DNA of 61,708 nt from a virus (IMGVR_UViG_3300036854_000037:1-61708); one strand, 5' to 3'; shown: positions 34,547-61,708, counted from the stretch's first letter. Made by a program: numbers and translations. The notes: a model not told the origin generated them from the sequence alone.

Positions 34547-34627
34547 AGTTAAGGTATCTTACACCCGATGGTGGTCGTGCCTTCATAGTTGTGCTAAGAC
34601 CCAGTGATACCATGCCGACCACCATCA
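34545..34627. repeat. 83-bp structured intergenic element, copy B
   Basis: See copy A; perfect GATGGTGGTCG/CGACCACCATC inverted repeat. Confidence 0.85.
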
Positions 34628-35758
34628 CCCTTCGACAGGCTCATCGATGAGCCGGTTACCCCCGATGCTAAACCCAGTGAACTCGCCAGACCTGAACCGC
34701 TCAAGCATGCGAGGATCGTCTGGCTTCACCCCGATCATAAGTCCTGTTCTCGAACCGCCAAGCCCCATAGCCTTGGAAATATCATCCGTGACAGGCCAAG
34801 CGTAAACTACCTCCCCCACGCGCTTGCCCTTATGCATGACTTTCAAGTCTCGTTTCGACATCATGAAATCCATCGACGCCCTCAACATAGCGTCTTGAGG
34901 GATGTGGTCACCTTGCGAGTCGAAGTACGGATCACCCTTCTCATCGCAGACGATAGCCCACCCGAACACCAGACCTAGTGGGTCGTTGGGGCCTGGGTTG
35001 CCGTGGTTGGGCGTCATCTTAGCGAGCGCTTGGGTGAATGTCATCGCTTTCAACAGACGCTTCTTGGAACCGCGCAGTCGATCTTCAAGGTCGTTGATGT
35101 CAGAACGCGTCCTCTGGCGTGATGCCTCCAGTTGCTTGACGCGCTGATCGTACAACTGGTACTCAGCGTCGAAGCGACGGTAGCGGCGGTCCCAATAATC
35201 TTCTGTACCCGGACCAGATGCCGCACCATAGAGGTAGTACGCATCTTCACGATTGGCAAACGCCTTGTCACGAAGGACCGTTGCTTCGCTGAGCTGAGCG
35301 TCGAAACGATCGTACTGCTCGTACAACGAGTCGAGCCGCTTACGATCCCGTGCATCCATGCCAGAGGTCTGAGGCCGCTCGACCGGCGCCTCCTCCTTCG
35401 GCTTGACTTCCTCAGGCGCTTGCTCGGTTGGCTTCTCTACTGGCTTCTCAGCCTGGGGTTTGGCGCGCGGCTTCCGTAGTTTGGGAGGAGGCGCCTTCTC
35501 CTTCGGCTTCTCCTTGGCCTTGGGTTTTGGTGCCGGCTTGGGTTTCGACTTCGGCTTGGCAGCAGGTTTTGCAGCGGGCTTCTTGCTAGGGGCCTTCGCC
35601 TTCATCTTACCCTTACCACCAGCTGATCCCTTGGGCTTGCCGGCGCCAGCGCCGCGACCTGTAGTCCAACGACCCTTGGAGTCCCGTGTCTGGTTCTCGT
35701 CGAACTCCGGGTAGCCCTTACCCAGGATGGGGCCGACGTTGAAGAGGTCCTCACTCAT
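34625..35758 (-). CDS. XkdF-like prohead protease with tagged, Lys/Pro-rich N-terminal extension
   Basis: LVFGWA..DSQGD..MH..G...GFSIGG; start MSEDLF at 35758. Confidence 0.85.
   Translation of the reverse strand: MSEDLFNVGPILGKGYPEFDENQTRDSKGRWTTGRGAGAGKPKGSAGGKGKMKAKAPSKKPAAKPAAKPKSKPKPAPKPKAKEKPKEKAPPPKLRKPRAKPQAEKPVEKPTEQAPEEVKPKEEAPVERPQTSGMDARDRKRLDSLYEQYDRFDAQLSEATVLRDKAFANREDAYYLYGAASGPGTEDYWDRRYRRFDAEYQLYDQRVKQLEASRQRTRSDINDLEDRLRGSKKRLLKAMTFTQALAKMTPNHGNPGPNDPLGLVFGWAIVCDEKGDPYFDSQGDHIPQDAMLRASMDFMMSKRDLKVMHKGKRVGEVVYAWPVTDDISKAMGLGGSRTGLMIGVKPDDPRMLERFRSGEFTGFSIGGNRLIDEPVEG
35666..35719 (-). repeat. KGYPE tag copy 1 (KGYPEFDENQTRDSKGRW)
   Basis: Translated motif in the protease gene. 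Confidence 0.9.
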
Positions 35759-35759
35759 C

Positions 35760-36599
35760 TCAAAAATGCCCCCGAACCGCAAACAGATCAACCTCAGCCT
35801 TCCCGAGCGAGCGACCAGACGTCCTGCGCATTATGGGAAGGCCAGTCACCATACCTTGGATCCAGTCCCAATTCGCACTCCCCGCTGTTCGCTTCGAATG
35901 CATGGCACTCAGCTTCGCCATAGCCCGCGTCATCTCCGTGCGTTGGGCCTTGAGGTCCCCCAACCTCTTGTAGGAATTGCGGTAGGCTTGCGAATTGCGC
36001 TTGAACTGAGTCATGCGCGCTTGCAGGTTACGAATGTTGCGAGCGACCTTGTCGCGCTCCTTCTTGGTTTTGGTATAAGCGGCGCGGATGGATTTGAGAG
36101 ACGGCTGCTTGGTCTTCTTACCCCGTGCTCGGCCCTCACTTACCCCACCACCCGCGCCGCCACCCCCTGACCAACGACCGTCTGAACCACGAGACTGGTC
36201 TGGATTATATTCAGGGTAGCCCTTCCAAAGTCCTCTATCCATGAGCCGGCGCCGCTTCTTACGCCCGCTCACATGCAACCGACCCTCAATCGAGGTTGAC
36301 TCCGGCGATCCTGGAGAGCCTGGGGCTGCGACCTTTTGCTGCTGAGTGGTCCACGAAGAGTAACTCAGCGAGGCGCCAGCCTTCTTAATCTTCTTGCCGC
36401 GAGCGGACCAGCGTCCGCCGCCCTTGGGGCGCTTGTAGGAGTGGCTTACAGCGCCCCACGCCTGTCTGTGGGCACTCTCGTCGCTGGCGCCGCCACTGAT
36501 GGCTGAGTTGACGACGTTGCGGAAGATGTCTTGGGCGTGACCCGGAAGGGTATGCGTGACAGGCTTAGGTAGTTGATCGTTCCGATCGTAGGGCATCAA
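35760..36599 (-). CDS. ChaB-domain protein with internal KGYPE tag and basic C-terminus
   Basis: MPY....LP..V...LP.HAQ.IF...NSA..A...AW.AV...Y. Confidence 0.8.
   Translation of the reverse strand: MMPYDRNDQLPKPVTHTLPGHAQDIFRNVVNSAISGGASDESAHRQAWGAVSHSYKRPKGGGRWSARGKKIKKAGASLSYSSWTTQQQKVAAPGSPGSPESTSIEGRLHVSGRKKRRRLMDRGLWKGYPEYNPDQSRGSDGRWSGGGGAGGGVSEGRARGKKTKQPSLKSIRAAYTKTKKERDKVARNIRNLQARMTQFKRNSQAYRNSYKRLGDLKAQRTEMTRAMAKLSAMHSKRTAGSANWDWIQGMVTGLPIMRRTSGRSLGKAEVDLFAVRGHF
36171..36224 (-). repeat. KGYPE tag copy 2 (KGYPEYNPDQSRGSDGRW)
   Basis: Translated motif. Confidence 0.9.
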
Positions 36600-37368: not shown

Positions 37369-37448
37369 GACTTGTCTCGCCTTGAGGGTTCCTACGTAAC
37401 CGACTGTATCATGCACTTACCCGTGCGCCTATTGCAGGCGCGCAACAG

Positions 37449-44318: not shown

Positions 44319-44421
44319 GCCGATTCCCCTCTCCTACGCCCCACATTGCCGTGCCTGCGGGCAAATGTGGTAGGGGTGGTACCCCAGACACTCCCGATCT
44401 GATCGCCCGCCAGCGGCGTCG

Positions 44422-46201: not shown

Positions 46202-46202
46202 C

Positions 46203-47054: not shown

Positions 47055-47316
47055 AATAGGACTCCATCACCGCCGCCGCATCACGCATATTGCACCACGC
47101 CTCGTTATCTGGATGTGTGGCATTTCGGTAGATCATCGCCAACTCATCCCGCCTCCAAATGAGCGGGCACCCAACAACGGCTCGCGTGACCCATTCCGAC
47201 ATCCTGTTCAACTGCACGTCCGTGACGAAGGGCTCCTTGCTCCAGTCGCGGGACTCAAGCTCCAAACGCTCGCGCTCACGAAGTACGAGTCCCTTCTCTG
47301 CTTCGGTCAATCGCAT
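47044..47316 (-). CDS. Hypothetical protein
   Basis: Overlap-coupled ORF in the operon. Confidence 0.45.
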   Translation of the reverse strand: MRLTEAEKGLVLRERERLELESRDWSKEPFVTDVQLNRMSEWVTRAVVGCPLIWRRDELAMIYRNATHPDNEAWCNMRDAAAVMESYYEG

Positions 47317-48173: not shown

Positions 48174-48850
48174 CAGACACCCTTAAGTCGCAGATTGCGA
48201 GTGAATAGCACCACCAACTCAAACCGCTGTGACAACCAATGATAACCCTCAACCTTGTCAGTAGGCGATATATCAAAAGTGTAGTCAGGATGGAGCACGC
48301 GCAAGGCCGCTACAATTCTCTCGCGCCACCACATTGGTTCCTTAACAGTTAAGTGTGTATTTGTACCACTTGGCAACGTCTTCCTAGAGGGGTCACACGC
48401 AATTGACATGAATGCAAACTTGCCGACGTATGATAGTACATCGATGAGGAACCAATCGATACAAGATTCTGGAATATGCTCCGCGACGTCTGTACAAATG
48501 ACGCCATCAAACTTGTACGTTGGTTTGACCAAGAGTCCAGGGACACCCGGATCGTAACAAACCGGTACCACACCCCAAGGTAGGTGTTGTTGTCGTGCTG
48601 GACTATGAGCGTCAGATTGAACATACTGACGACCCTTACCCGAGCCGTAATCCAGAATGCTCGCAGCATGATGTGCGCCCACAAGCGTCGCAAGAAATTC
48701 AACGCTGGGCTTGCTAAGCCCACCCCTGAAACGCTTATGGTGCTGGTGTGCCTCAAGGTACTCAACACCCAGCTTCTGAATTTCCAGAGGTCCGTAATCA
48801 GCCACGCCATCCTGTAACATTATAGCGCTCACTCTAGTTCTTCTTGACAT
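48173..48850 (-). CDS. Class I SAM methyltransferase
   Basis: ILDYGSGKG.QY, YDPG, ICTDVAEHIP. Confidence 0.85.
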   Translation of the reverse strand: MSRRTRVSAIMLQDGVADYGPLEIQKLGVEYLEAHQHHKRFRGGLSKPSVEFLATLVGAHHAASILDYGSGKGRQYVQSDAHSPARQQHLPWGVVPVCYDPGVPGLLVKPTYKFDGVICTDVAEHIPESCIDWFLIDVLSYVGKFAFMSIACDPSRKTLPSGTNTHLTVKEPMWWRERIVAALRVLHPDYTFDISPTDKVEGYHWLSQRFELVVLFTRNLRLKGV

Positions 48851-49364
48851 GAAGCCTTAGAGACTTCCGGCCAGGATTGCACTCAACTACAGACCACGAG
48901 TGGTGATTTAGTTTCTCCAACCACCAACCAGAGGGCTTGATCGTTATATGAGCATTTTGTCCATCGGGCAGCACCCTCTTTGCCTTGGTCAATCCAATAG
49001 AAAAGTACCCTCCAATCAACATGAGATTGTGGATATGTTCTAATACATCATCCACATACTCAATCTCTACATGCTCCATGACATCCGTACAGACTATGAA
49101 GTCAGCTGGCAGAGGATCACCTGCACAGGACTCAATGGCTGGATCATACTCAGCTACCGATAAACTCGGGTTTGACTCTGCGAGATGACGCCTGACAGTC
49201 CCAAAACCCGATCCATAATCAAGGACAGTCTTACAACGCAATTCCTCGCAGAACGGTAGGAAATCCTGGATATACGAGAAGCCTTTAGTCCCCCAAGGGG
49301 CTGCCTGGTGCATTTGGGCCAGGAGCTGCCTGTAGTCGTCTGAGATGAACTTTGACAAAGTCAC
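48834..49364 (-). CDS. Class I SAM methyltransferase
   Basis: VLDYGSG.G, YDPA, VCTDVMEH, LPDGQNAH. Confidence 0.85.
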   Translation of the reverse strand: MTLSKFISDDYRQLLAQMHQAAPWGTKGFSYIQDFLPFCEELRCKTVLDYGSGFGTVRRHLAESNPSLSVAEYDPAIESCAGDPLPADFIVCTDVMEHVEIEYVDDVLEHIHNLMLIGGYFSIGLTKAKRVLPDGQNAHITIKPSGWWLEKLNHHSWSVVECNPGRKSLRLHVKKN

Positions 49365-51970: not shown

Positions 51971-52003
51971 ATGGTGTTCCCTTGTATGGTTTTTGGTGCC
52001 CCG

Positions 52004-52042
52004 AAGAAACAGAGGAGGCGGTAGGCGTTCACTACCACCTCC
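52004..52042 (-). terminator. Terminator-like hairpin upstream of nrdJ
   Basis: GGAGGTGGTAG-tgaacgc-CTACCGCCTCC followed by TCTGTTTCTT. Confidence 0.65.
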
Positions 52043-52185
52043 CCACCCGCTCCCTGCACCCGCTGGCGGTGGACCTACGGTTGAACATAGGGGGATACGA
52101 GCAGATCAATTTGAGTGCATCAGCACGACGTTGCCAAGGCCCAATCTGTGTCGTGCCAATCACACATCGAAATCAAATACCCGAA

Positions 52186-52386
52186 CTACAGCTGGGCAAT
52201 GGGTGCAGCGTCCAATTTGATCAACGCGCCCGTCACTGCGTCGTAGTACCCATCCTTCTCAGCGCGCATCTTCGCATTAGGCTTGAGCGCCACATGGCTG
52301 CCGTTGGGCAGGATCAGGTCCGCACGCTTCACCCCATCAACCGTGAAGATGCGGATCGAATTCCGGGGGATCGCATTCTTACTCAT
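52186..52386 (-). CDS. Small protein coupled to the metallopeptidase gene (candidate inhibitor)
   Basis: ATGA overlap at 52383-52386; 66 aa. Confidence 0.55.
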   Translation of the reverse strand: MSKNAIPRNSIRIFTVDGVKRADLILPNGSHVALKPNAKMRAEKDGYYDAVTGALIKLDAAPIAQL

Positions 52387-53933
52387 CCGAGGCTCCTCAG
52401 CGCATCCACTGACCCACTAAACGTGGTTAGCACCGCTTGCTGCGTCATCGATCTGTTGAAGAGGTACTTGCCGCTCGTCGGCCTGCCGTAGGTTGCTGTG
52501 TAAATCTCAGCGAACAGTTCCTGAGGAATGGATGAAGGCTCATAGGCCTTGGCGTAATAGTCCCGGACAGCCGGAGGTGCGAGTGCGTACTCGTGCAACA
52601 TGACCGGCGCCAACGCATGCGATATGGCAAACTCTTCACCTGGGATCGCGTAGTAGTCAAGTGCATGTGCGCTCTCATGGATAACGATCCGATTGATGTC
52701 ATCAAAAGGTGTGAAGCCAAACCTCTGGTTGCTCCAACCCTGACCCACAACAAGACCCATACCAGGATTGAAGAAGCCTGCGATATACCCACGCTCGGGA
52801 TCAATCTTAGGGTTGAGTGATGCAAACCGGCGCATATCGTAAAGGGCTGTTATCTGCAGGTTCTTCAAGACCTCGTAATGGTTCCGTGGTATCCTAGCCA
52901 TTGTGTCCTTGATCGCCACCATAACCTTCTCAGTACCAGGTTCAGCACGCACCCTGATGTAACGCTGTTCCTGCTCTTGCCTGGGTGGAGATGGTCGAGC
53001 CGTCGCACGCTGTTGACGTTGCTTCTCCCTGTAGCGCTCGCGTCGACGTACAGAGGCCGGGTCCATCCTGAGTTCGCTGATGCCACCAGCACCACCAGAC
53101 CATCGACCATCCTCACCCCGTGATTGATCAGGGTTGTATTCAGGGTAGCCCTTCACGAAGTAGTCGAGGCACTTGGATGTCGGCATTGTACCAGACGTCC
53201 AGTTCCTGATGGCTGAGACTGTCCTGGGGAAGCGGCGCAAGACGCCCTGTTGCGTCAGGCTGTAACCAATGAAGTCCCGCTCTCTTCCTCCCTGCGGTCC
53301 GTACATCGCTGCGTACACATCGGCGAACAGCTCCTTGGGGAGGCTGTCGGCTGAATAGTGCTCTGAGTAGTAGCGCTGCGAACGCGACAAACCATTGTAC
53401 TCAGACATGATGGTGCCAGCAAGCGCGCTCGAGAAGGCGAAGGGTTTACCAGGGATGGCGTTGTAGTCAAATGCATGCCCGAACTCATGCGTTGCCCAAC
53501 GCTCAACATTCTCAAACTCGATGAAGCCCCACTTGTTGTTGGTCCAACCTTCACCCACAACGAGTCCCAGGATTGGACTGTAGAAGCCGGCTGTGAACGT
53601 CAGGTCCTTGCGGTTGGGATCGATTTCAAGCATTCCCATCCTGGAATACTTCGCCATGTCATAGACGGCCTTTTTCGGTAGGTTCCGAAGGACAGCCTGG
53701 TGATCCTCAGGTAGCCGTGACATGACGTTCTTGATTGCCCGGCCGGCGTTGTCGGCTCCCCTCTCCTGGAGAAGCCTGATCGATGTATCTTGCTTGGACC
53801 AGTCAATGCCGCGCCGCTTGACCCTGTACGTCTTAGGGCGCTGGCGAGCCGAACCTCCTCCAGACCAACGTCCATCCTCACCCCGTGGTTGATCCGGATG
53901 GTATTCAGGATAGCCTTTGAATAGGTTGAGCAT
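52383..53933 (-). CDS. Tandem zincin metallopeptidase polyprotein, each domain preceded by a KGYPE tag
   Basis: HEFGH..ELFAD and HESAH..ELFAE. Confidence 0.82.
   Translation of the reverse strand: MLNLFKGYPEYHPDQPRGEDGRWSGGGSARQRPKTYRVKRRGIDWSKQDTSIRLLQERGADNAGRAIKNVMSRLPEDHQAVLRNLPKKAVYDMAKYSRMGMLEIDPNRKDLTFTAGFYSPILGLVVGEGWTNNKWGFIEFENVERWATHEFGHAFDYNAIPGKPFAFSSALAGTIMSEYNGLSRSQRYYSEHYSADSLPKELFADVYAAMYGPQGGRERDFIGYSLTQQGVLRRFPRTVSAIRNWTSGTMPTSKCLDYFVKGYPEYNPDQSRGEDGRWSGGAGGISELRMDPASVRRRERYREKQRQQRATARPSPPRQEQEQRYIRVRAEPGTEKVMVAIKDTMARIPRNHYEVLKNLQITALYDMRRFASLNPKIDPERGYIAGFFNPGMGLVVGQGWSNQRFGFTPFDDINRIVIHESAHALDYYAIPGEEFAISHALAPVMLHEYALAPPAVRDYYAKAYEPSSIPQELFAEIYTATYGRPTSGKYLFNRSMTQQAVLTTFSGSVDALRSLG
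53100..53153 (-). repeat. KGYPE tag copy 3 (KGYPEYNPDQSRGEDGRW)
   Basis: Internal translated motif. Confidence 0.9.
53865..53918 (-). repeat. KGYPE tag copy 4 (KGYPEYHPDQPRGEDGRW)
   Basis: N-terminal translated motif. Confidence 0.9.
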
Positions 53934-53936
53934 TGG

Positions 53937-54512
53937 TTAAATGCCCTCATCAAACCCAAGGTCGTCCTGGGTGACAGAGATGCCATCCGTACCACTGGTG
54001 ATGAACTGCTCAAAGTCACCCTGACCACACAGAAACTGCCCAACGAGTTCCTGCACAGGCAACGGGAATCGATTGAGCTGTGCCGCAGTGCCCTCAGCGA
54101 GGCGGAACCACTCGATGTTGACCGAGCCTGCACCCAACCGTCTGATCTTCTGAACGCCTGGGACGTTGTTGTTGACCGCCTCGTTGCCATCGGTGAGCGC
54201 GAACGCCATCTCAACGGAGCCATCAATGATCTGCTGAGGAATGGTTTGATCATCCAAACCATCGATGCCGGTATTGGTTCGCGGCCACTGCAACGTCTGA
54301 CCGCTCAGCATAGTCGGCTCACCAAGCCAACACTGACGATCGAAGAGACGCGTCGCCGTGACGAGGGCAGAACCCTTCTGATCATCTGTCAGGTTGAACC
54401 AACCAGACGCCAGGAAGTTCGCCTGCAGGTAGAGATTTGCGTAGTCGAGCGTTGAGTAGGCATCATACGGCTGCGAGTTTACGATGACGACACTCTCATT
54501 AGCGTCGGTCAT
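53937..54512 (-). CDS. Head-tail adaptor (often annotated as DnaT-like)
   Basis: Y.TL..A..Y, AL..AT...D, Q.LQWPR, IP..I..G..E.A. Confidence 0.75.
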   Translation of the reverse strand: MTDANESVVIVNSQPYDAYSTLDYANLYLQANFLASGWFNLTDDQKGSALVTATRLFDRQCWLGEPTMLSGQTLQWPRTNTGIDGLDDQTIPQQIIDGSVEMAFALTDGNEAVNNNVPGVQKIRRLGAGSVNIEWFRLAEGTAAQLNRFPLPVQELVGQFLCGQGDFEQFITSGTDGISVTQDDLGFDEGI

Positions 54513-55114
54513 GGCATATGCCTCCAGATAAACCTCAGCGTGTCCAAAACCGGGTTGACGATATCAAAACCGTCACTGGGTACAGGAGCACGACCTCCAA
54601 AATAGAAGTAGGCAGCGAGTCCCACAAGGACAGCTGTGCCAACGACGTTGATGAAGATCGACTCCTGGGTGGCTGGGTCCAATGAGCCGAACCATTCCCT
54701 TACCGATGTCCGCACCTTCTGCAGGACACCAGCCGACGCCTGCTTCAATTCAGGCGCGCTGGGGGTGCCACCATCGGAGAGCATCGAGGCGACAGGCCTG
54801 ACAAGATCGAGTCCAGCCGTCTTCCCAGAACCAGAGGAGCTTGTCCACTTACCAGACCTATCCCGTGCCTCCTCAGATCTGTATTCTGGATAACCCTTCG
54901 TCACTGAGCGCAGCAACGACACAGATGCGCGCGCCATGTTGAGAACGGCATCAACGTAGTCGGCGGCCTGCCCCGTGAGCTTGATACGTTCCTTCTGCAG
55001 TCTGTTGATCAACGAGTCCAGACGCATGGGATTGCGCTCAGTGCGAGACAACCGCATGAGCGAGACCATCTCACGCAATACCTCATCGAGAACCAAAGGC
55101 GCTTGTGCTACCAT
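54509..55114 (-). CDS. KGYPE-tagged protein with C-terminal TM helix
   Basis: Tag at 54845-54898; IFINVVGTAVLVGLAAYFYF. Confidence 0.7.
   Translation of the reverse strand: MVAQAPLVLDEVLREMVSLMRLSRTERNPMRLDSLINRLQKERIKLTGQAADYVDAVLNMARASVSLLRSVTKGYPEYRSEEARDRSGKWTSSSGSGKTAGLDLVRPVASMLSDGGTPSAPELKQASAGVLQKVRTSVREWFGSLDPATQESIFINVVGTAVLVGLAAYFYFGGRAPVPSDGFDIVNPVLDTLRFIWRHMP
54845..54898 (-). repeat. KGYPE tag copy 5 (KGYPEYRSEEARDRSGKW)
   Basis: Translated motif. Confidence 0.88.
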
Positions 55115-55590
55115 GGCCTACTCAACCCCGCAGTCAAAACGCGCTGTGCATCGAGTGCCCATCCGTTAACCTCACGCTTCATTGAGTCAATGGCTGCCTT
55201 GCGACTCTTGACCTTCCTAGCGTTTATAACCTGAACGGCAGCATAGGCAGCATCTGGCGGTTCCTTCGCAAGAGTGTCGATCAAATCATAGGCTTTCTGC
55301 CTGATCGGAGCCATGTCAGCCCGCAACCTGCGGCCAGCCTCCTGTGAGCGGGATGGACCAAATCGTTCGGCGCGCTGACGCGCTTGGTTGATCTGCGAGC
55401 GCAATTTATTGAGCTTGGAACCTACTCCTTTGCCACGGGCTACCGCTGCCTTGTTGCCCACAGGTTTGGTCTTACCACGCGCTCGACCCTCACCGGCCCA
55501 ACGTCCATCATCACCCCTAACCTCGTCGGGGTCGTACTCTGGATAACCCTTGCCTAGGATCGGGCGCATCTTAAATAGGTCTTGAGTCAT
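55108..55590 (-). CDS. KGYPE-tagged basic protein
   Basis: Leader MTQDLFKMRPILGK resembles the protease leader MSEDLFNVGPILGK. Confidence 0.75.
   Translation of the reverse strand: MTQDLFKMRPILGKGYPEYDPDEVRGDDGRWAGEGRARGKTKPVGNKAAVARGKGVGSKLNKLRSQINQARQRAERFGPSRSQEAGRRLRADMAPIRQKAYDLIDTLAKEPPDAAYAAVQVINARKVKSRKAAIDSMKREVNGWALDAQRVLTAGLSRPW
55498..55551 (-). repeat. KGYPE tag copy 6 (KGYPEYDPDEVRGDDGRW)
   Basis: Translated motif. Confidence 0.9.
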
Positions 55591-58271
55591 TCCAAGAACC
55601 TCTCACCCAAACGAGCAAACTTCTCCTGAGGCAACCTGTACCTAGCCGTGGTTCCAAGGAGTAGAAACTTGCCAAGGGTCAGTCTGCTACCAGACTTGCG
55701 AACCCTGTCATGTGTGAAACGAAGCGGGAGCGCTGAGTTAGGTAGCTCTTGGTTAAGATGGGCAAGGCGGAAAGCCAAGTCAGGACCACCAGACTTGAGG
55801 ATCACATCGCGCACATAGTCAACAGTCTCCTTGTCAAGGGAACCCTCACCATGTGCCGCGAGCAAACGTGTGTCCACCTCATAAGCAAGTTTCCGCACCT
55901 CGTTCTCATCGGCAAGCTCGAAACCAAGTCGCGGCCAGACGTATCCACCACAGACACCACCACTACAAAACGGATTTGCACCCGACTCGAAAGCTATCTT
56001 ACGAACCTCCTCCATGATAGACGACACCCAGCCCTTGGCAGTGCGAGTTCCACCTGAGAGGATGAGCTTGGACGTTTCACCATTGTTGTCGTACAGCTTC
56101 CACTGGTACATCCGGTCCTTGACGGTATCGAAGGCCAGCTCATTGACACCCTTGCCGAGGATGTAGGTTGGTACATAACGACCAAACGAGTTGCTCATTG
56201 CGCGACCGATGGCGCGGGTCGCTGCGATCTCAGGTGTCGTCTGAACGAATAGACCAGAAACCCGATAGCCGGCTTCCTCGAACGCATCCATCAAATCGGT
56301 AGAGGCATCAGGCGATCTCAACGTCGCGTCATGGATGATATTGAGCCCCAGCTCGCGACCTCTGTCCTCGAGTTCCGATGCGAGTTCAGATGCCTCCTCA
56401 TGGTAGAGCGATGAGTTCCACCCGTGATACCCAGGCAAACCATAGTCTGCGTCACCCGCCTTGAACTGCTTGTTGTCGCCGCGCAGATCATCGGCATTGA
56501 CATAGAGATACTTATCCATGTCAGGCACAAAACCCGACTCCATGAGTGATGTGGTCTTACCCGACCCAGGGCGACCTCCCATGATGATCAGTTGCGGGTC
56601 TTCGCCTTCCGCTGGCTTGGCGCGCTCCAACGCGTCCTCAAGGCGTAACTCGATAATACGCTCATGCAGTGCCTGACGATCGGCTGTCCACGTACCGTCA
56701 GGGTTCTTGAAGCCCCCTTCCGAGACGAGCGCATCTGTGTGAGGCAGCTTGGAGAGGCGCTTGTTGGTATCGCGAATGTAGGCGCGCTGTTTGGGTGTGA
56801 GGCTCCTCATGAATGCGCGCTGGGATGGCGTTGGCTTCTCCCTCAGATGTGACCCGAGGAGATCGCGCGCCTCGTGCCCAGGCCGCAACTCGCCACCCTC
56901 ACCACCAAGCCATCGACCGTCAGGACCGCGCGTCTGGCTTGGATTGTACTCTGGATAACCCTTGGTCAATCCATATCCAACAACTGTGAAGCGGTAAGTG
57001 TCACGATCCTCCTTGAACCAACCACCAAAGCCAGCGCGTACCCTACCTGTTCCATCGAAGCGCAATCGCAAGCCGCGAGGGAGGATGAGTTCGTCCTCCT
57101 TATAACCAGGTGTAAACATAATACGGTCTACAGCACGCCAGAATGCCTTACCAGGGCCGATAGGTGTTCCCTGAGGAACTGCAATTTCCATGAGTTGCCC
57201 AAACCCACTTGCATGCGCGACATCCGGTGTAGCTGATGTATAACCAGCATTAACCAAAAGATCACCCTCCTTAAGTCCGCCTAGAATATCACGACCAATT
57301 CTAAGATCGTCTCCCACTAGAGAATTAAAGCCGCGGTACACAATACCATCCCGCTTGGTCTTGTGTGCTGCTATAAAGGCATCAAGTGCCACCACGACTT
57401 CATCGCCTGTTTGACCCAAAGACTCACCATTGCGCAATCGTCGGTTGAGGGTCATCGAATACATGGTACCTAAGTAGTTATCCCGAATGGTATTATATTG
57501 CTGCTTTGTCCATGAACCTATTTTCTCCGCATCGTCCTGATGCAATAAGTTGGTGGGGCGGCCAGCGCCCCCCACCCAACGACCATGTTCATCCCGTGAC
57601 TGATCAGGGTTGTACTCTGGGTAGCCCTTGTTGACCTTGGGTGACAGGACGAAGTCGTAGTGGTAAGAGTTACGGAAAAGTTGCACCTTACCAACAAACT
57701 TCAACTCCGTGTCGCGGGGGAGGAGGATCTCAGCCTCATCCGACCGGTCGTCAAGGAACAGAGCACCTACGTGGACACCAGGTAAGAGAGTGATACGCAT
57801 GCTATTATCGCCGAAGGTGCTGATCACATCGGCATGAACAGACGTTGACATGAAGCCTTTGTCAACCACAGAGTCCCCAGGCGTCAGGCTGTCAAACATC
57901 TCCAACCGTTTAATATTGGTACCCGCTGCCCTGTAGACCACAACCGGCTCAGTTATAATGTAGGACTTGGTATACACATCGAGGTTTGCGACGTGTTCCT
58001 CGATTTTCTCCCTGTTCAGGGGAGAGGCAGGGACGCGGATACCTCTCAAGTAACTATTGACTATCATGTACCCAGACGTACCATAATTCTTGACCGATGC
58101 TCTAATAGCCTCGGAAGGACGCTGCAGCTCCTGGATCGCACCACCAAGTGTCAGATGGAAAGTATCAGGCGCATCCTCACGAGCCCAACGACCATCAGGT
58201 GCGCGCCACTCATCGGGATTGAATTCCGGGTAGCCCTTGAGGACCAGGAGCACCACTACTTCCTCACTCAA
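55587..58271 (-). CDS. Toxin-like polyprotein: ADP-ribosyltransferase, ADP-ribosyltransferase, zeta-toxin-like P-loop kinase and an unknown domain
   Basis: VYRA/FMSTS/EAEILLPR; VYRG/YTSAT/EDELILPR; MGGRPGSGKT/NADD/HEEAS/DATL. Confidence 0.85.
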   Translation of the reverse strand: MSEEVVVLLVLKGYPEFNPDEWRAPDGRWAREDAPDTFHLTLGGAIQELQRPSEAIRASVKNYGTSGYMIVNSYLRGIRVPASPLNREKIEEHVANLDVYTKSYIITEPVVVYRAAGTNIKRLEMFDSLTPGDSVVDKGFMSTSVHADVISTFGDNSMRITLLPGVHVGALFLDDRSDEAEILLPRDTELKFVGKVQLFRNSYHYDFVLSPKVNKGYPEYNPDQSRDEHGRWVGGAGRPTNLLHQDDAEKIGSWTKQQYNTIRDNYLGTMYSMTLNRRLRNGESLGQTGDEVVVALDAFIAAHKTKRDGIVYRGFNSLVGDDLRIGRDILGGLKEGDLLVNAGYTSATPDVAHASGFGQLMEIAVPQGTPIGPGKAFWRAVDRIMFTPGYKEDELILPRGLRLRFDGTGRVRAGFGGWFKEDRDTYRFTVVGYGLTKGYPEYNPSQTRGPDGRWLGGEGGELRPGHEARDLLGSHLREKPTPSQRAFMRSLTPKQRAYIRDTNKRLSKLPHTDALVSEGGFKNPDGTWTADRQALHERIIELRLEDALERAKPAEGEDPQLIIMGGRPGSGKTTSLMESGFVPDMDKYLYVNADDLRGDNKQFKAGDADYGLPGYHGWNSSLYHEEASELASELEDRGRELGLNIIHDATLRSPDASTDLMDAFEEAGYRVSGLFVQTTPEIAATRAIGRAMSNSFGRYVPTYILGKGVNELAFDTVKDRMYQWKLYDNNGETSKLILSGGTRTAKGWVSSIMEEVRKIAFESGANPFCSGGVCGGYVWPRLGFELADENEVRKLAYEVDTRLLAAHGEGSLDKETVDYVRDVILKSGGPDLAFRLAHLNQELPNSALPLRFTHDRVRKSGSRLTLGKFLLLGTTARYRLPQEKFARLGERFLE
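56910..56963 (-). repeat. KGYPE tag copy 7 (KGYPEYNPSQTRGPDGRW)
   Basis: Precedes the zeta-like domain. Confidence 0.9.
57576..57629 (-). repeat. KGYPE tag copy 8 (KGYPEYNPDQSRDEHGRW)
   Basis: Precedes the second ART domain. Confidence 0.9.
58185..58238 (-). repeat. KGYPE tag copy 9 ([18 protein letters not shown])
   Basis: Precedes the first ART domain. Confidence 0.9.
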
Positions 58272-58291
58272 AGTAGCCGTTGATCATAACG

Positions 58292-58618
58292 TCACCACGC
58301 CAAACCAGGTCCTGTGTATCCGTCGAAGGAGAATGAAGCGCCAGGCTTAAGAACGTGACCAGTGGTGCTGGTCACACCTGAAGTTGATCCTAGATAGACC
58401 TTGATGGATGCATCGTCGTTGGTAAGCTCGCCGAAAACCCTACCAGGGTTGCTCGCAACGACCAACTCAGCCGACGTGGAGAGAACATTCTGACCAACAG
58501 ATAGAGTGTTGCTAACCAGGTCGTCAGCCGGGCGCGTCTTCAGATTGCCGTCAGAATCTAGGTTTACAGCGACCGGGTTTTTGTTTGCCCTGTCATAGCC
58601 AAAAGTCAACCGCGTCAT
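58292..58618 (-). CDS. Small beta-rich virion-like protein
   Basis: GGAGGAG RBS; N..R..N....VYLG...V...G..L.PG pattern. Confidence 0.6.
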   Translation of the reverse strand: MTRLTFGYDRANKNPVAVNLDSDGNLKTRPADDLVSNTLSVGQNVLSTSAELVVASNPGRVFGELTNDDASIKVYLGSTSGVTSTTGHVLKPGASFSFDGYTGPGLAW

Positions 58619-58640
58619 GGTCTCCTCCCCCTAGCAGGGG

Positions 58641-58817
58641 CTACCCATCCTTAGGTTCAGTCTCACTTGCCTTCTTGGTAGCACGGATGATCTGCAGGCC
58701 CACCCCATCCTCAACGAAGCGGGATCGGCGGGTCATGTCATTGCGAGGGAGGCGCACGCGATCCTTCTTCTGCATCGCGTCGAATGCTTCCTTGAACGTC
58801 TTGTGCAACTTGGGCAT
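58641..58817 (-). CDS. 58-aa hypothetical protein (below the ORF-track cutoff)
   Basis: MPKLHKTFKEAFDAMQKK..EPKDG*; starts immediately after the ATP-grasp stop. Confidence 0.5.
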   Translation of the reverse strand: MPKLHKTFKEAFDAMQKKDRVRLPRNDMTRRSRFVEDGVGLQIIRATKKASETEPKDG

Positions 58818-58818
58818 C

Positions 58819-60081
58819 TCAGAACTCTATCCCGAACTCTGCCAACTTCTTGATCTCTGCCTGGGCCTCATCCAGCGCGTCGGGGTAGAGCTGAACGAGG
58901 TAGCCTTCAACCTTCTCAGCGATCTGCTTGACCTGTTTGACCACCTCATCCTGCGACTCGGCATAGGCAACGATGGCGCCGATCTCAGGCATGCCGGCCG
59001 GATCAGGGACAACATAGTACTTCCCGTCGACGACCGCCAGGTTGCGCAGCTTGACGTTCTCGCGCAGATCATCGGGGAACTCGATGGCTTGCCAGTTGCG
59101 CTCACCAGCCCAGGCAGAATGGATCAGCAGTTCAGCCGCCCACGTACCCTTGTAGGATGGTTCGACCAGCACACCATCAGCCCCTTCCCAGAGCACCTCT
59201 GCAATGTTCTCCATCATGAGACCGAACAACTCCGAGGGAGGTGAGCCGAAGCGCGCACAAGGATCGATGCTGTAGGCCGTTCCATCCTTGGGAATACGAA
59301 GTTCTGCCGACCAGAAATTACGATACTTGTACGCCTTCAAGACAGGTGCGAACCGGGCGTTGACATCACGCACCTGTTTGGGCAGACCAGCATAGGGCTT
59401 CACGCGCCCGACATACCCCTTGTCCTTGACCTCGATGCCATAAAGCGTCTGCTTGGGGAATTGACCATCGATGCAGTAGCCATCGTAGCCAACCTCGACC
59501 GCATCGTTGATTGCATCCTCGACGATGAACTCGATCTTGTTGCGCTTGGCGCCAAGCTTGTGACCCAGCTCGTCAAGGCGCGGTTCGATCAGCTTGTAGT
59601 TCTTGGAGTAGAACGTCTCCATATCACCACGCGTCGCGCTCACCTTGATGTACTGATCGTCGTTCTTCTTGAGGTAGGCGCGCAACGCATCGAGCCCTGT
59701 GACAACCTTGTAGGGGCCGATGGTGATACCAAGGTCCTTCTGCAGGTCCTTGCTGACAGACCTGTCCAATTCCAGGTCTTCCCCTCTCCGTGATCCCCAA
59801 ACCCGCTTGCCCATCTCAACGAGATGGGTCTGGAGGGCACCATCGTAGACATCAGGGAAGACGAACAGGTCGACGTAGGGGGCGACATCCCAGATGTTGG
59901 TGACGCGCTCGACCCCGTCGATGCCCTTGCCGATCCACAGCGGATTGCTGTTCGGATAGCTGCTTATCCAGGGGCAGTAGTAGTAGACCAGATCGAAGTC
60001 ATTGGCGAGGACGCTCGCTATCTCAACGAAGAGCCCGTTATCATAAACGAGCGCCTTCTTCCCTGGATACAACTTTGCCAT
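58819..60081 (-). CDS. PurD-like ATP-grasp ligase
   Basis: LELDR..SK, YIK, FIVE, EVG.DG, IDPCARFGSP. Confidence 0.72.
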   Translation of the reverse strand: MAKLYPGKKALVYDNGLFVEIASVLANDFDLVYYYCPWISSYPNSNPLWIGKGIDGVERVTNIWDVAPYVDLFVFPDVYDGALQTHLVEMGKRVWGSRRGEDLELDRSVSKDLQKDLGITIGPYKVVTGLDALRAYLKKNDDQYIKVSATRGDMETFYSKNYKLIEPRLDELGHKLGAKRNKIEFIVEDAINDAVEVGYDGYCIDGQFPKQTLYGIEVKDKGYVGRVKPYAGLPKQVRDVNARFAPVLKAYKYRNFWSAELRIPKDGTAYSIDPCARFGSPPSELFGLMMENIAEVLWEGADGVLVEPSYKGTWAAELLIHSAWAGERNWQAIEFPDDLRENVKLRNLAVVDGKYYVVPDPAGMPEIGAIVAYAESQDEVVKQVKQIAEKVEGYLVQLYPDALDEAQAEIKKLAEFGIEF

Positions 60082-60096
60082 CGCAGCCCCATCGGT

Positions 60097-60822
60097 TTAG
60101 TCCATGCCTGTATTCCAACCAGGCCGCACACCTGCATACCGTCCCCCTGTCGCTGCCTTGCGATAGACCCAACGAGCCATCAGGTAAAGAGCGGTTGCTG
60201 TCACAGCAGCACCATAAACTGTCATGACCACACCACCTGTGGCAAGGCCACCCAAGCCTGCGATGAGAAGTGCGTGGGTGCTGGTCAGCTCCTGCAATAC
60301 ATGGTCGGCAAACGAGGGCTCGTACCAAACCTTGCCGTCATAGCTGCGCATGGTGTCCCAGGTCTTCTGCGCCTCGCGCGACATACGATCGGATGCCGCC
60401 TGCCGCTCAGCCTCCGACTTGGATGTCAGCCCATCAACGTCGCGCTTGATACGATCGAGGCCACCCTTGACCCCATCGTACTTGGCCCCCATGGATTTCG
60501 ACCACTCAGGCCGGCGATTGCGCTCACTGGAACTAGATTCCATTGAGTCCATCCAGTCGAGCTTGGCTCGCAACCAATCAGCATTCACACGAGAGGGTGG
60601 CTTACGACCGAACTTGCGCTCGTACTCAGAAGCGAGTTTTGCACGCTCTCCAGGCTTGGCACGACCTTCGCTGATACCACCAACAGAACCACCAGACCAA
60701 CGTCCATCCTCACCCCGTGACTGGTCAGGGTTGTATTCAGGGTAGCCCTTGCTTAAGACTGTCAGCAACCCATCGATGCGAGCGTCGAGGTCCGCCACAT
60801 CCTTCCACAGAGTCTGTCTCAT
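60097..60822 (-). CDS. KGYPE-tagged protein with hydrophobic C-terminal hairpin
   Basis: ATGA-coupled start MRQTLWK at 60822; ALLIAGLGGLATGGVVMTVYGAAVTATALYL. Confidence 0.72.
   Translation of the reverse strand: MRQTLWKDVADLDARIDGLLTVLSKGYPEYNPDQSRGEDGRWSGGSVGGISEGRAKPGERAKLASEYERKFGRKPPSRVNADWLRAKLDWMDSMESSSSERNRRPEWSKSMGAKYDGVKGGLDRIKRDVDGLTSKSEAERQAASDRMSREAQKTWDTMRSYDGKVWYEPSFADHVLQELTSTHALLIAGLGGLATGGVVMTVYGAAVTATALYLMARWVYRKAATGGRYAGVRPGWNTGMD
60697..60750 (-). repeat. KGYPE tag copy 10 (KGYPEYNPDQSRGEDGRW)
   Basis: Translated motif; 50/54 nt identical to copy 3. Confidence 0.9.
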
Positions 60823-61424
60823 GGCACCAAAACCTTGAGCGCGCCACCAATCGCCCGACCCAACGAGTCGACCGCCATCGGGATGGCCACTGATGCAACA
60901 GCGATGACGATAGCCGACAGGAACAGCGCAAACCATACCTTCTGCATGGTCTCCACTGTGTCACGAGATGGCAAGCCGATCCTCGCGTTGGCGACATCCA
61001 CAGATCGCATGACAGCGTCGCGGGAGTCAGCGGGCACACCTTGCTTGATCAGATGCTCCCTGATGGCAGCAGCGATCTGACGGCGTTGGGGTCCGATCTT
61101 GCGCTTGCCCTCGAGTGTTATCTCGCGAGGGGCTGAGGCGCCACCAGAGGTCCACTCACCCGACTGTGTGCGCGCCTCATCGGGATTGAATTCCGGGTAG
61201 CCCTTCTTCGTTTCTGTGGCCACCCGCTTGATCATGGGCATCAAGGCCGCCACAACGGCCTCTGCAGCGTTCTTGCGATGCTCCGTAGGGAGTGCCCGTA
61301 TGGCGCGAGCAACGCCCTGAGCGGCCCGCGCTGACGCAGCAATCGCCGTTCTGATGTCAGCGTCGGGGCTGCGCACCTTGTAAACGGGTGCACCGGACAG
61401 CACAACGACGCTCAAGCCGGTCAT
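60819..61424 (-). CDS. KGYPE-tagged protein with C-terminal TM helix
   Basis: [23 protein letters not shown]. Confidence 0.72.
61152..61205 (-). repeat. KGYPE tag copy 11 ([18 protein letters not shown])
   Basis: Translated motif. Confidence 0.88.
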
Positions 61425-61591
61425 TTGGGCTTGTCCTTCTTACCCAGCTTCGCCTTGAGTCCTTCAACCCAGGCCTTGCGGCGCTTGAGATAGTCATCCG
61501 AGTAGCTGGCATCAACGACCTTCGGGTCCAGCACCTCACCTTCGTTGATGAAGTCGGCGGCGTGCAGGTCGCCATGCTTGTGCCTTGCCAT
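61421..61591 (-). CDS. Small hypothetical protein
   Basis: AGGA RBS; ATGA-coupled to the next gene. Confidence 0.5.
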
Positions 61592-61708
61592 GGTCCTTGT
61601 CCTCACTTCCTGTTGCGGGACATCGCTCCCCGACCTGTGAAGCTACCGGAATTGATACCGCGTACATCACGCGCGAACTGATCGGCTGAGGTAGGCTTGC
61701 TCGCCCGG

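What the first reader, a model, noticed from the sequence alone, without database searches (positions are those of the whole stretch)
55587..58271. Four-module toxin polyprotein (ART, ART, zeta-like kinase, unknown) with tags as linkers and no evident antitoxin
Seen: ART1 (~57630-58184; YR, STS, EAE), ART2 (~56964-57575; YRG, SAT, EDE) and a P-loop kinase (~56050-56909; GGRPGSGKT, NADD) each directly follow a tag. A degenerate AK-GW site at ~56035 precedes a fourth region containing GGYVWPRLGF, possibly GNAT-like (low confidence). Established: R-S-ExE ARTs (VIP2/C2, T4 Alt/Mod type) modify arginine, and zeta/PezT kinases phosphorylate UDP-GlcNAc. Inference: the precursor may be inactive until cut inside the capsid, which would avoid the need for an immunity gene. 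The next gene is another tagged cargo rather than an obvious antitoxin.
Basis: partly seen in the sequence, partly recalled or inferred. Interest (0 to 1): 0.8.

Follow-up and report, generated by a model that had tools for sequence, protein, structure and literature searches.

The report
Tag-jointed phage enzyme cargo protein
An uncultured phage encodes one long protein that strings two ADP-ribosyltransferases, a zeta-type kinase and a truncated acetyltransferase-like piece behind a short repeated peptide that also heads its head protease, so it is most likely enzyme cargo packed into the capsid and injected into the host: a known strategy in a format that is little described.

Summary
The ORF (55587-58271, minus strand, 894 aa) is real. 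Three modules are confirmed. ART1 and ART2 are divergent ADP-ribosyltransferases, each with R / S-x-[ST] / E-x-E. The third is a zeta/PezT/AvrRxo1-like P-loop kinase with Walker A and the catalytic Asp. Each follows a ~22-aa tag, KGYPE[YF]NPDQxRGxDGRW. The tag occurs 11 times in 9 ORFs of the window, including the XkdF-type head protease and a double zincin peptidase.

The fourth region is not headed by a degenerate tag. It is the C-terminal two thirds of a recurrent GNAT-like cargo module. The tag and about 65-100 N-terminal residues are missing, so it is probably a catalytically dead remnant.

A profile of the tag finds 822 protein families. These are mostly 600-3800-aa multi-module proteins, some fused to MuF, Mu-type portal or S78 protease.

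The protein is best read as a phage-type polyvalent cargo protein (Iyer et al. 2017) that works like T4 Alt. The missing antitoxin is expected and needs no special explanation. Packaging, cleavage at the tags and precursor inactivity are all inferred, not shown.

Novelty lies in the tag format, which I could not find in print. Other windows of this scan have already noted it repeatedly.

The parts
55587..58271 (-). Whole ORF (P0001): 894 aa from TTG 58271. A likelier start is GTG 58253, which follows GAGGAA. The stop overlaps the next gene's ATG.
58173..58238 (-). Tag 1 (residues 12-33, [22 protein letters not shown]). It is the most degenerate of the three and has no Gly-rich tail.
   Evidence: generic tag profile E 0.07
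57636..58172 (-). ART1: an R-S-ExE ADP-ribosyltransferase (R114, S142-T-S, E179-x-E181).
   Evidence: Pfam PF03496 at 65.3 bits against a cut-off of 23.4. It aligns to SpvB 2gwm (E 3.4e-5) and VIP2 with the motifs in register. PHROG Alt-like phrog_802, E 3.5e-8.
57561..57629 (-). Tag 2 (residues 215-237).
56970..57560 (-). ART2: a divergent second ART (R313, S346-A-T, E392-x-E394).
   Evidence: Pfam PF03496 at 22.3 bits, just under the 23.4 cut-off, covering profile positions 17-174 of 196. BLASTP to ART1: 24% identity, E 1e-5, motifs aligned. BLASTP to the ART of P0003: E 2e-21. No PDB sequence hit.
56892..56963 (-). Tag 3 (residues 437-460).
56040..56891 (-). Zeta/PezT/AvrRxo1-like P-loop kinase (Walker A at 565-574; D594 aligned with the Asp of PezT's IDGDSFR).
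   Evidence: Pfam PF06414 at 78.7 bits against 22.3. PezT 2p5t E 9.8e-5. The AF2 model has mean pLDDT 83, and its Foldseek top hits are AvrRxo1 4z8q, zeta 1gvn/3q8x and PezT.
55590..56039 (-). Truncated GNAT-like module (residues 745-894). It keeps helix alpha3, GGYVWPRLGFEL and the C-terminal helical extension. It lacks its tag and the N-terminal strands.
   Evidence: no Pfam hit on its own
55108..55590 (-). Next gene: 160 aa with an N-terminal tag and a basic tail.
54509..55114 (-). 201-aa protein with an internal tag. By eye it has a hydrophobic C-terminal stretch.
   Evidence: membrane segment read by eye, not computed
53937..54512 (-). Head-tail adaptor Ad1 gene within the same tightly packed block.
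   Evidence: phrog_477, E 8e-23
52383..53933 (-). Two tandem modules, each a tag plus a zincin-like part (HEFGHAFDY and HESAHALDY, each with a downstream ELFA). This is a candidate processing peptidase.
   Evidence: phrog_4415 'peptidase', E 9.5e-7; no Pfam or PDB sequence hit
34625..35791 (-). Head protease gene: N-terminal tag, Ala/Lys/Pro-rich linker, then a C-terminal XkdF-type S78 domain.
   Evidence: Pfam PF14550 at 29.2 bits against 24; tag
35760..36599 (-). ChaB-domain protein with an internal tag.
60097..61424 (-). Two further overlapping tagged ORFs (60097-60936 and 60819-61424). By eye both have hydrophobic C-terminal stretches.

Best explanation
This is a phage-type polyvalent cargo protein. 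It is made late, together with head genes. Each complete module (ART1, ART2, kinase) starts with this phage's version of a widespread header peptide. That peptide most likely addresses the protein to the assembling procapsid, and it probably also marks where a phage protease cuts the string. The candidate proteases are the tagged XkdF-type head protease and the tagged zincin. The freed enzymes would then leave the capsid with the DNA and act at the very start of infection. By analogy, the two ExE-type ARTs would modify arginines of host proteins with NAD, as T4 Alt does. The kinase would phosphorylate a nucleotide-type substrate (UDP-GlcNAc as zeta/PezT does, or NAD as AvrRxo1 does). The fourth piece is a deletion remnant of a GNAT-like module and is probably inactive. 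Shown here: the modules, their catalytic motifs, the tags, the genomic context and the spread of the tag. Inferred: packaging, cleavage, ejection, targets and timing.
For: Modules and motifs. Context: the ORF sits in an overlapping minus-strand gene string with three other tagged genes and the Ad1 head-tail adaptor. The same tag heads the XkdF-type protease. In the one clear relative found (L010), a 728-aa string of tag-ART, tag-ParB-like and tag-zincin modules lies directly upstream of the portal gene, and 10 tags occur in 7 ORFs around it. Spread: the tag profile finds 822 representatives at E<=1e-3 and 143 at E<=1e-10 among 1.84 billion. In the best 150 plus earlier homologs I count 603 tags in 151 proteins, with a median spacing of 238 aa; 90 of 151 have a tag in the first 60 residues, and among the 74 KGYPE-type tags none starts closer than 75 aa to a C-terminus. 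Of 66 such proteins scanned with Pfam, 11 carry MuF, 2 Mu-type portal and 1 Peptidase_S78. Fifteen carry ART-type domains, 6 Zeta_toxin, 5 GNAT and 2 Acb1. P0007 and P0030 are portal proteins with tagged Nudix, GNAT-like or zeta modules hung on their C-termini. The zeta region hits a PHROG 'minor head protein' family. In BFVD it hits a 1134-aa Acb1-plus-zeta phage protein at 31% identity and rmsd 2.8. The tags are conserved as peptide, not as DNA: synonymous sites vary. In the AF2 model of homolog P0006 all three tags fall in stretches with pLDDT under 50, which fits exposed linkers. Iyer et al. list ART, GNAT, zeta-like kinase and zincin peptidase as parts of phage polyvalent proteins and propose injection and peptidase processing (passages of PMC5512222). 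T4 gives the worked precedent: a short N-terminal peptide that both targets and is cut, and packaged Alt (passages of PMC9026906).
Against: There are no virion proteomics, no transcripts and no cultured relative. tblastn against 50,697 phage records found nothing. The partner that reads the tag is unknown. The block also holds non-structural genes (RNR, methyltransferases), so position alone is weak evidence. The record lacks portal and terminase (CheckV 73%). A tag at the very N-terminus of proteins is not needed for a pure cleavage joint. Conversely, tags inside portal or MuF fusions are not needed for targeting. So a single role is not established. The upstream [LV]-x-K preference (62% L or V at position -2 among 74 KGYPE-type tags) is only a hint of a cut site. 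In L010 one gene starts MRKDYPEF without it. 24 of the 66 tag proteins have no Pfam domain, so the census covers only the recognisable part.
Confidence: 0.55

Rival explanations
1. It is packaged but not cut. The protein travels as one multi-enzyme string, and the tags are address labels or flexible joints only.
For: Tags also sit at the N-termini of single-module proteins, where cutting would serve little purpose. Iyer et al. note that some plasmid polyvalent proteins are transferred full length. No cut site is demonstrated.
Against: Modules hung on portal C-termini (P0007, P0030) could not leave the capsid unless freed. Both candidate proteases carry the tag. The T4 precedent couples targeting with cutting.
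Confidence: 0.2
2. It is processed after injection rather than in the capsid. The tagged zincin modules (52383-53933) would cut the string at the tags in the host cytoplasm.
For: This zincin module (HExxHxxD plus ELFA) recurs in 16 of 152 tag proteins, often in the same polypeptide as the cargo (L010). Its motif matches the phage-type peptidase that Iyer et al. describe, and they propose post-injection autoprocessing as one option.
Against: The fold is not verified: there is no Pfam or PDB sequence hit. Most tag proteins in the wider family show no such module (136 of 152).
Confidence: 0.1
3. It is not virion-associated. It would be a cytoplasmic late enzyme set, with the tag serving another purpose such as assembly into a complex, turnover or recombination joints.
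For: There is no direct evidence of packaging. Non-structural genes are interleaved in the block. Conserved tags would favour module shuffling by recombination whatever their protein-level role.
Against: The tag is conserved at peptide level with variable synonymous sites. It is shared with the protease and occurs in portal, MuF and S78 fusions.
Confidence: 0.12
4. It is a toxin in the strict sense: a zeta-type toxin-antitoxin or abortive-infection module, or a MuF-style polymorphic toxin for competition between bacteria, needing an immunity protein.
For: ART and zeta domains are classic toxin domains. The best structural matches are toxins and effectors.
Against: P0001 has no MuF domain. No antitoxin-like, ARH or macro family turned up among the neighbours or among the 60 ORFs scanned. 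No integrase was seen in the window. The phage carries its own replication genes.
Confidence: 0.03

Closest known systems
Phage-type polyvalent proteins (Iyer, Burroughs, Anand, de Souza, Aravind 2017, J Bacteriol, PMC5512222; passages read)
   Same: Several unrelated enzyme domains sit in one polypeptide encoded among virion genes. The same parts list applies: ART, GNAT next to ART, zeta-like kinase, and a zincin peptidase with HExxH followed by Asp. They propose injection with the DNA and proteolytic processing.
   Different: Here every complete module is headed by one conserved ~22-aa peptide, which also heads the head protease and several small proteins. In that paper the word 'linker' does not occur, and of its 14 occurrences of 'motif' the passages shown to me describe no such peptide. 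I did not read its supplements or the whole text.
T4 Alt and the T4 capsid targeting sequence / gp21 system (review PMC9026906; passages read)
   Same: It is a packaged, ejected ADP-ribosyltransferase. A short N-terminal peptide, shared by several internal head proteins, both targets them to the prohead and carries the protease site. The protease itself is processed.
   Different: The peptide is different and longer. The protease family is different (XkdF-type S78 here, not gp21). The capsid is a siphovirus-type head with a separate scaffold. Several modules lie in series on one chain rather than one protein per tag.
MuF polymorphic toxins of temperate phages (Jamet et al. 2017, PMC5576092; passages read)
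   Same: Toxin-type enzyme domains are carried by phage head-module proteins.
   Different: P0001 has no MuF domain, no immunity gene was found, and there is no sign of a temperate lifestyle in the window. The words 'motif', 'linker' and 'cleav' do not occur in that paper's main text.
Zeta/PezT toxins and AvrRxo1 (PDB 1gvn, 3q8x, 2p5t, 4z8q)
   Same: Same fold, Walker A and catalytic Asp.
   Different: There is no epsilon/PezA-type partner. It is embedded in a multi-module phage protein. The substrate cannot be told: AvrRxo1 (E 1.3e-8) and zeta (E 3.7e-8) are tied as best matches. What these enzymes phosphorylate is recalled, not taken from a call.
Encapsulin cargo-loading peptides and the HK97 protease targeting tail (recalled, not looked up here)
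   Same: A short peptide suffices to load a protein into an HK97-fold shell.
   Different: Those peptides are C-terminal and unrelated in sequence. No binding partner is known here.

Membership tests
R-S-ExE ADP-ribosyltransferases (Pfam ADPrib_exo_Tox; C3/VIP2/SpvB/Alt type) | Family profile matched above the curated cut-off | tested here: met
   ART1 scores 65.3 bits against a cut-off of 23.4. The whole protein scores 78.9 bits with 2 stretches. ART2 alone scores 22.3 bits, just under the cut-off, but BLASTP to the ART of P0003 gives E 2e-21, and that protein carries PF03496.
R-S-ExE ADP-ribosyltransferases (Pfam ADPrib_exo_Tox; C3/VIP2/SpvB/Alt type) | Catalytic Arg, Ser-x-Ser/Thr and Glu-x-Glu in register | tested here: met
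   ART1 has R114, S142-T-S and E179-A-E, aligned to SpvB. ART2 has R313, S346-A-T and E392-D-E, aligned to ART1.
R-S-ExE ADP-ribosyltransferases (Pfam ADPrib_exo_Tox; C3/VIP2/SpvB/Alt type) | ART fold | tested here: inconclusive
   The window's own ARTs were not folded. The homologous ART of P0006 (29% identical to ART1) was modelled and matches 8za7, VIP2 and C3 at Z 13-14.
R-S-ExE ADP-ribosyltransferases (Pfam ADPrib_exo_Tox; C3/VIP2/SpvB/Alt type) | NAD-dependent ADP-ribosylation of a protein target | not testable with these tools
   Needs a biochemical assay.
Zeta/PezT-type kinase as a toxin-antitoxin module | Zeta_toxin profile, Walker A, catalytic Asp and fold | tested here: met
   PF06414 scores 78.7 bits against 22.3. 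The AF2 model (pLDDT 83) has Foldseek top hits AvrRxo1, zeta and PezT.
Zeta/PezT-type kinase as a toxin-antitoxin module | Adjacent cognate antitoxin (epsilon/PezA type) | tested here: not met
   Upstream ORF 58292-58618 hits only an unknown PHROG. Downstream ORFs are tagged proteins with no Pfam family. This protein is therefore not filed as a TA module.
GNAT acetyltransferases | Homology to a GNAT-fold module | tested here: met
   A profile of 14 full copies matches P0001 residues 721-889 (105 bits, E 3e-34). The same profile overlaps Pfam GNAT regions in 4 of 5 GNAT-labelled tag proteins (P0130, P0048, P0017, P0046; not P0023). The full copy in the P0006 model matches GNATs (1y9w, 2g3a, 7ypu, 2vez and others) at a middling Z of 5-6.5. 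The Atlas gives only a lead: a cluster with 20% Acetyltransf_1 at score 0.93.
GNAT acetyltransferases | Complete core (N-terminal strands plus the acetyl-CoA-binding beta4-alpha3-beta5 unit) | tested here: not met
   Homology starts at the alpha3 helix (residue ~745), directly after the end of the kinase. The tag and about 65-100 residues present in P0002, P0003, P0006 and P0032 are absent. It is filed as a remnant.
Phage-type polyvalent proteins (Iyer et al. 2017) | Two or more biochemically disparate effector domains in one polypeptide | tested here: met
   ART, ART, kinase and a GNAT remnant.
Phage-type polyvalent proteins (Iyer et al. 2017) | Encoded among late or virion genes | tested here: met
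   It shares a gene string with the Ad1 adaptor and shares its tag with the head protease. The L010 relative lies next to the portal gene.
Phage-type polyvalent proteins (Iyer et al. 2017) | Carried in the virion and injected | not testable with these tools
   Needs virion proteomics.
MuF polymorphic toxins | N-terminal MuF domain on the same polypeptide | tested here: not met
   No PF04233 hit in P0001 at E<=1. MuF is a separate gene at 39150-40205.
T4-type CTS cargo | Shared short leader on several head-internal proteins, including the protease | tested here: met
   11 tags in 9 ORFs, including the protease. It works like this family, but the sequence and the protease family differ, so it is not a member.

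The most novel reading that the evidence does not exclude
The KGYPEYNPDQxRGxDGRW peptide is the local form of a general, still undescribed capsid cargo code of tailed phages. One short header would both load any protein into the procapsid and mark where it is cut. Protease, membrane-active ejection proteins and enzymes would all share it. Strings such as this one would then be swappable cartridges of injected enzymes, assembled by recombination at the tags. If so, the tag alone would predict the injected proteome of thousands of uncultured phages and could be used to load foreign proteins into capsids.
Probability: 0.3. Interest if true: 0.85.

Novelty: new variant of a known kind. Interest (0 to 1): 0.55.

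Why it matters
Which proteins phages inject with their DNA is largely unknown outside a few model phages. A sequence label that marks such proteins would make the question answerable from sequence. This protein is a clean small example. It has three intact enzymes of known families, each behind the same header, and the phage's head protease carries that header too. It offers a compact test system for tag-dependent loading and cutting. It also allows a test of what two different arginine-type ARTs and a zeta-like kinase do together in the first minutes of infection. As a single instance it is not surprising to a specialist who knows the polyvalent-protein literature.

Tried and rejected
1. tblastn of the whole protein against 50,697 phage records found no match.
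2. Related loci in IMG/VR: the protein as query gave 0 confirmed of 5 pattern matches. The strict DNA pattern gave 1 locus. The tag alignment gave 2 loci of 9 pattern matches.
3. The genome-contig scan with the tag gave 1 locus of 16 pattern matches. It covers only tag residues 5-15, in a Bacteroidales MAG, and my profile scores it weakly (E 4e-5 over 11 residues). I treat it as chance.
A narrower one gave 1 distant zeta-like locus of 112 pattern matches. It has no tags and was not informative.
5. Word-based search for stand-alone copies of the fourth module (80-258 aa) gave 0 hits among 45 candidates. The search for shorter relatives of the whole protein gave 2 hits, both at the tag only. I therefore cannot say that the modules occur as separate genes in close relatives.
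6. Complex prediction of the tag (alignment of 11) with the XkdF protease domain (residues 250-388) gave no verdict: score 0.00 against a mark of 0.32, and the controls were not run. This is no evidence either way. Tag against zincin, capsid protein, scaffold or MuF was not tried, because the cap is one job.
7. PDB sequence searches for the zincin module (profile of 3) and the XkdF domain found nothing meaningful. ART2 alone had no PDB hit.
8. Full-text searches for the tag strings (GYPEYNP, NPDQPRG, DGRWSGG, NQPRDE, YNPNQPR) gave 0 papers. DHPRD hit only an unrelated abbreviation in the 15 papers listed. Topic searches and word look-ups in PMC5512222 and PMC5576092 showed no description of the tag. 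Supplements of these papers were not read and could hold one.
9. Rejected: AK-GW as a degenerate tag.
10. Rejected: the tags as a DNA repeat, because synonymous sites vary.
11. Rejected: the idea that shorter forms of the fourth module in P0054 and P0025 show an independent short unit. Those copies have room for a divergent N-terminal half after their tag.
12. The promoter and terminator scan of 51900-61708 was at or below shuffle expectation and gave nothing usable.


Full report
WHAT THE WINDOW IS. The window is a whole IMG/VR virus record of 61,708 bases, linear, with a CheckV completeness estimate of 73%. PHROG and Pfam scans of 60 ORFs show a siphovirus-type phage. It has a tape measure, a major tail protein, a phrog_1005 capsid protein, a head-tail adaptor and MuF. 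It also has its own DNA polymerase, clamp loader, UvsX, SbcCD and ribonucleotide reductase. No portal or terminase is in the window. No integrase was seen and there are no tRNA genes.

THE ORF. One open frame runs 55587-58271 on the minus strand, 894 aa from TTG 58271. TTG has no ribosome-binding site. GTG 58253 lies 6 nt after GAGGAA and would start the protein MLLVLKGYPEF, much like MLNLFKGYPEY of ORF 52383-53933. The stop overlaps the ATG of the next gene as ATGA. The following genes also overlap or abut one another. They are a tagged 160-aa gene, a tagged 201-aa gene, the Ad1 adaptor and a double tagged zincin gene.

THE THREE INTACT MODULES.
- ART1 (residues 34-212) scores 65.3 bits on Pfam ADPrib_exo_Tox against a cut-off of 23.4. 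It aligns to SpvB (2gwm, E 3.4e-5) and VIP2 with VVYR, FMSTS and EAEILLP in register. It also hits an Alt-like PHROG.
- ART2 (238-434) scores 22.3 bits, just under the cut-off, over nearly the whole profile. It has no PDB sequence hit. It aligns to ART1 (24% identity, E 1e-5) with IVYRG, YTSAT and EDELILP in register, and to the ART of homolog P0003 at E 2e-21.
- The ART of homolog P0006 is 29% identical to ART1. When modelled, it matches 8za7, VIP2 and C3 at Z 13-14.
- The kinase (461-744) scores 78.7 bits on Zeta_toxin. It aligns to PezT with the Walker A loop and the Asp of IDGDSFR conserved. An AF2 model of residues 460-894 has mean pLDDT 83. Its best PDB matches are AvrRxo1 (E 1.3e-8), zeta (3.7e-8) and PezT. 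These matches are tied, so the substrate cannot be assigned.
- In BFVD the best match is a 1134-aa phage protein named for an Acb1 domain (31% identity, rmsd 2.8). Many large phage 'zeta toxin domain' proteins follow.

THE FOURTH REGION. It has no Pfam family. The same module occurs in full in the homologs P0002, P0003 (twice), P0006 (twice), P0008 (six tandem copies), P0010, P0011 and P0030. In each it is about 230 aa long and starts with a tag.

A profile of 14 full copies, built without P0001, matches P0001 only from profile position 60 to 229 (residues 721-889, 105 bits). The first 25 residues of that match are the kinase's own C-terminal hairpin, which P0004 also has at its protein end. 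MAFFT opens a gap of roughly 100 residues in P0001 exactly where P0002, P0003, P0006 and P0032 have the tag and the N-terminal part. AKGWVSSIMEEV pairs with the helix EGRRFARKAL of the full copies, and neither tag profile scores it. The 'degenerate tag' is therefore a helix of the module. P0001 most simply derives from a kinase-tag-module arrangement, as in P0002, by an in-frame deletion.

The module is GNAT-like. Its profile overlaps Pfam GNAT regions in 4 of 5 GNAT-labelled tag proteins. The second copy in the P0006 model (pLDDT mostly 80-94) runs strand-strand-strand, long helix, strand, helix. It matches more than a dozen GNAT entries at Z 5-6.5. That is a middling Z, so it counts only together with the profile evidence. 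The Atlas search gave only a lead.

What P0001 keeps is alpha3, the GGYVWPRLGFEL segment and a helical extension that models well (pLDDT 82-93 over about 60 residues). Without the N-terminal strands it is unlikely to be an active acetyltransferase.

THE TAG IN THIS PHAGE. The 23-nt degenerate pattern matches 11 times, always on the minus strand, against 0.01 expected. At peptide level K, G, Y, P, E, R, G and W are invariant in the 11 copies. Synonymous sites vary, so the peptide is what is conserved.

The 11 tags lie in 9 ORFs:
- the protein under study (3 tags);
- a gene with two tag-plus-zincin-like modules (HExxHxxD and ELFA; 2 tags);
- four small proteins, three of which have a hydrophobic C-terminal stretch by eye;
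- a ChaB-domain protein;
- the gene whose C-terminus is an XkdF-type S78 protease domain (Pfam 29.2 bits against 24).

THE TAG ELSEWHERE. A profile of the 11 copies finds 822 representatives at E<=1e-3, 143 at E<=1e-10 and 6 at E<=1e-30 among 1.84 billion. The best 150 are mostly 600-3800 aa with 2-9 matched stretches.

In these plus the earlier homologs I count 603 tags in 151 proteins. The median spacing is 238 aa, and 90 of 151 have a tag within the first 60 residues. The common core is [FY]-[DN]-P-[DSN]-Q-P-R-D-x-x-G-R-W followed by glycines. The KGYPE extension is confined to 74 tags in 39 proteins. In these, L or V sits two residues before the Lys in 62%, and no tag starts closer than 75 aa to a C-terminus. 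A profile made only from other phages' tags recovers all 11 window tags.

Of 66 tag proteins scanned with Pfam, 42 have at least one family. Eleven carry MuF, 2 Portal_Mu and 1 Peptidase_S78. Fifteen carry ART-type domains, 6 Zeta_toxin, 5 GNAT, 2 Acb1, 3 2H phosphoesterase and 3 topoisomerase IB, among others. Tags sit between modules whatever the order, and often directly after a MuF domain. P0007 and P0030 are portals with tagged modules on their C-termini.

The only clear relative with DNA (L010, a 19.7-kb IMG/VR contig) has a 728-aa string of tag-ART, tag-ParB-like and tag-zincin modules directly upstream of its portal gene. It has 10 tags in 7 ORFs, and an Ad1 adaptor downstream. By analogy, the window's portal probably lies just beyond its right end.

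In the P0006 model all three tags fall in stretches with pLDDT under 50. This fits exposed linkers but does not prove them.

HOW IT MOST LIKELY WORKS. The protein fits the phage-type polyvalent proteins of Iyer et al. They list ART, GNAT next to ART, zeta-like kinase and an HExxH-Asp zincin peptidase as typical parts. They propose injection with the DNA and peptidase processing (passages). The closest worked mechanism is T4. There a 10-residue N-terminal peptide shared by internal proteins both targets them to the prohead core and carries the gp21 site. Alt, a packaged ART present at 40 copies, is cut at both ends and ejected (passages).

My reading is that the tag is the address, and probably the processing mark, of head-internal proteins of this phage. 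On that reading the chain is loaded, cut near the tags and ejected.

The reading rests on these observations:
- the tag is shared with the protease;
- tagged modules are fused to portal, MuF and S78 protease elsewhere;
- the ORF lies in a head-gene block;
- each tag is always followed by a module.

Packaging, cutting, the reader of the tag, the cut position and the targets are all inferred. The [LV]-x-K preference is only a hint of a site, and one L010 gene lacks it.

Two facts pull in different directions. N-terminal tags argue for an address function. Tags in portal fusions argue for a release function. A T4-like double role reconciles them but is unproven.

THE ANTITOXIN QUESTION. No epsilon/PezA-like, ARH or macro family was found next to the gene or among the ORFs scanned. 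It needs no special explanation, because packaged host-modifying enzymes made late in a lytic cycle have no need of immunity. Nothing here tests whether the precursor is inactive.

WHAT IS NEW. The enzyme set and the polyvalent principle are known. I could not find the header peptide described. Full-text searches for its strings gave no relevant paper, and word look-ups in the two most relevant papers showed nothing. I did not read those papers in full or their supplements.

Earlier agents of this scan reported the same kind of tag in other phages, also as undescribed. These are unchecked notes. My own measurements of the tag's spread and its company agree with them.

This finding is therefore a clear further instance with a local tag variant and one useful twist: the protease and a zincin carry the tag too.

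Noticed in passing
window 32852-34546 (-): The 564-aa acidic, scaffold-like ORF just upstream of the cement-like protein and the capsid gene starts MRKFNPYHDGGGKF. This resembles the NPxHDxxGRF flavour of the header tag reported in an earlier finding of this scan. My QPRD-type profiles do not score it, so it is not counted among the 11 tags.
   Followed up: partly
window 34625-35791 (-): The head protease gene has an N-terminal tag, then about 100 residues of Ala/Lys/Pro-rich low-complexity sequence and a coiled-coil-like stretch before the XkdF-type domain. PHROG labels the C-terminal part 'DNA methyltransferase' (phrog_1530), probably a mislabel carried over from fusions.
   Followed up: partly
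window 54509-55114, 60097-60936, 60819-61424 (-): Three small tagged proteins end in hydrophobic stretches that look like membrane segments (by eye). They are candidates for ejection proteins that enter the host envelope. ORF 60097-60936 probably starts later, at MRQTLW, because it overlaps the upstream gene.
   Followed up: no
window 52383-53933 (-): This gene has two tandem tag-plus-zincin-like modules (HEFGHAFDY and HESAHALDY, each with ELFA downstream). The same module ends the polyprotein of L010 and occurs in 16 of 152 tag proteins. It has no Pfam or PDB sequence match.
   Followed up: partly
window 41293-49364 (-): A block of methyltransferase genes (FkbM-type, and three with hits to phrog_24759) and glycosyltransferase-like genes lies between MuF and the ribonucleotide reductase. 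It may serve a sugar or DNA modification pathway.
   Followed up: no
window 36730-37416 (-): A phage-borne outer-membrane beta-barrel protein gene (Pfam OMP_b-brl, E 4e-9) points to a Gram-negative host.
   Followed up: no
window 38609-39157 (-): A cupin-like ORF with a PHROG 'cysteine dioxygenase' hit (phrog_4786, E 8.5e-46) sits next to MuF. A CDO_I domain also occurs as a module in tag protein P0039.
   Followed up: no
protein P0008 (1640 aa): This protein has six tandem copies of tag plus the GNAT-like module in one chain, so the module that is truncated in the window can be the sole, multiplied cargo elsewhere.
   Followed up: partly
L010 3894-6623 (+): In the relative, a 909-aa tape-measure-like ORF lies between the terminase and the polyprotein/portal genes. 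That is an unusual place for a tape measure.
   Followed up: no
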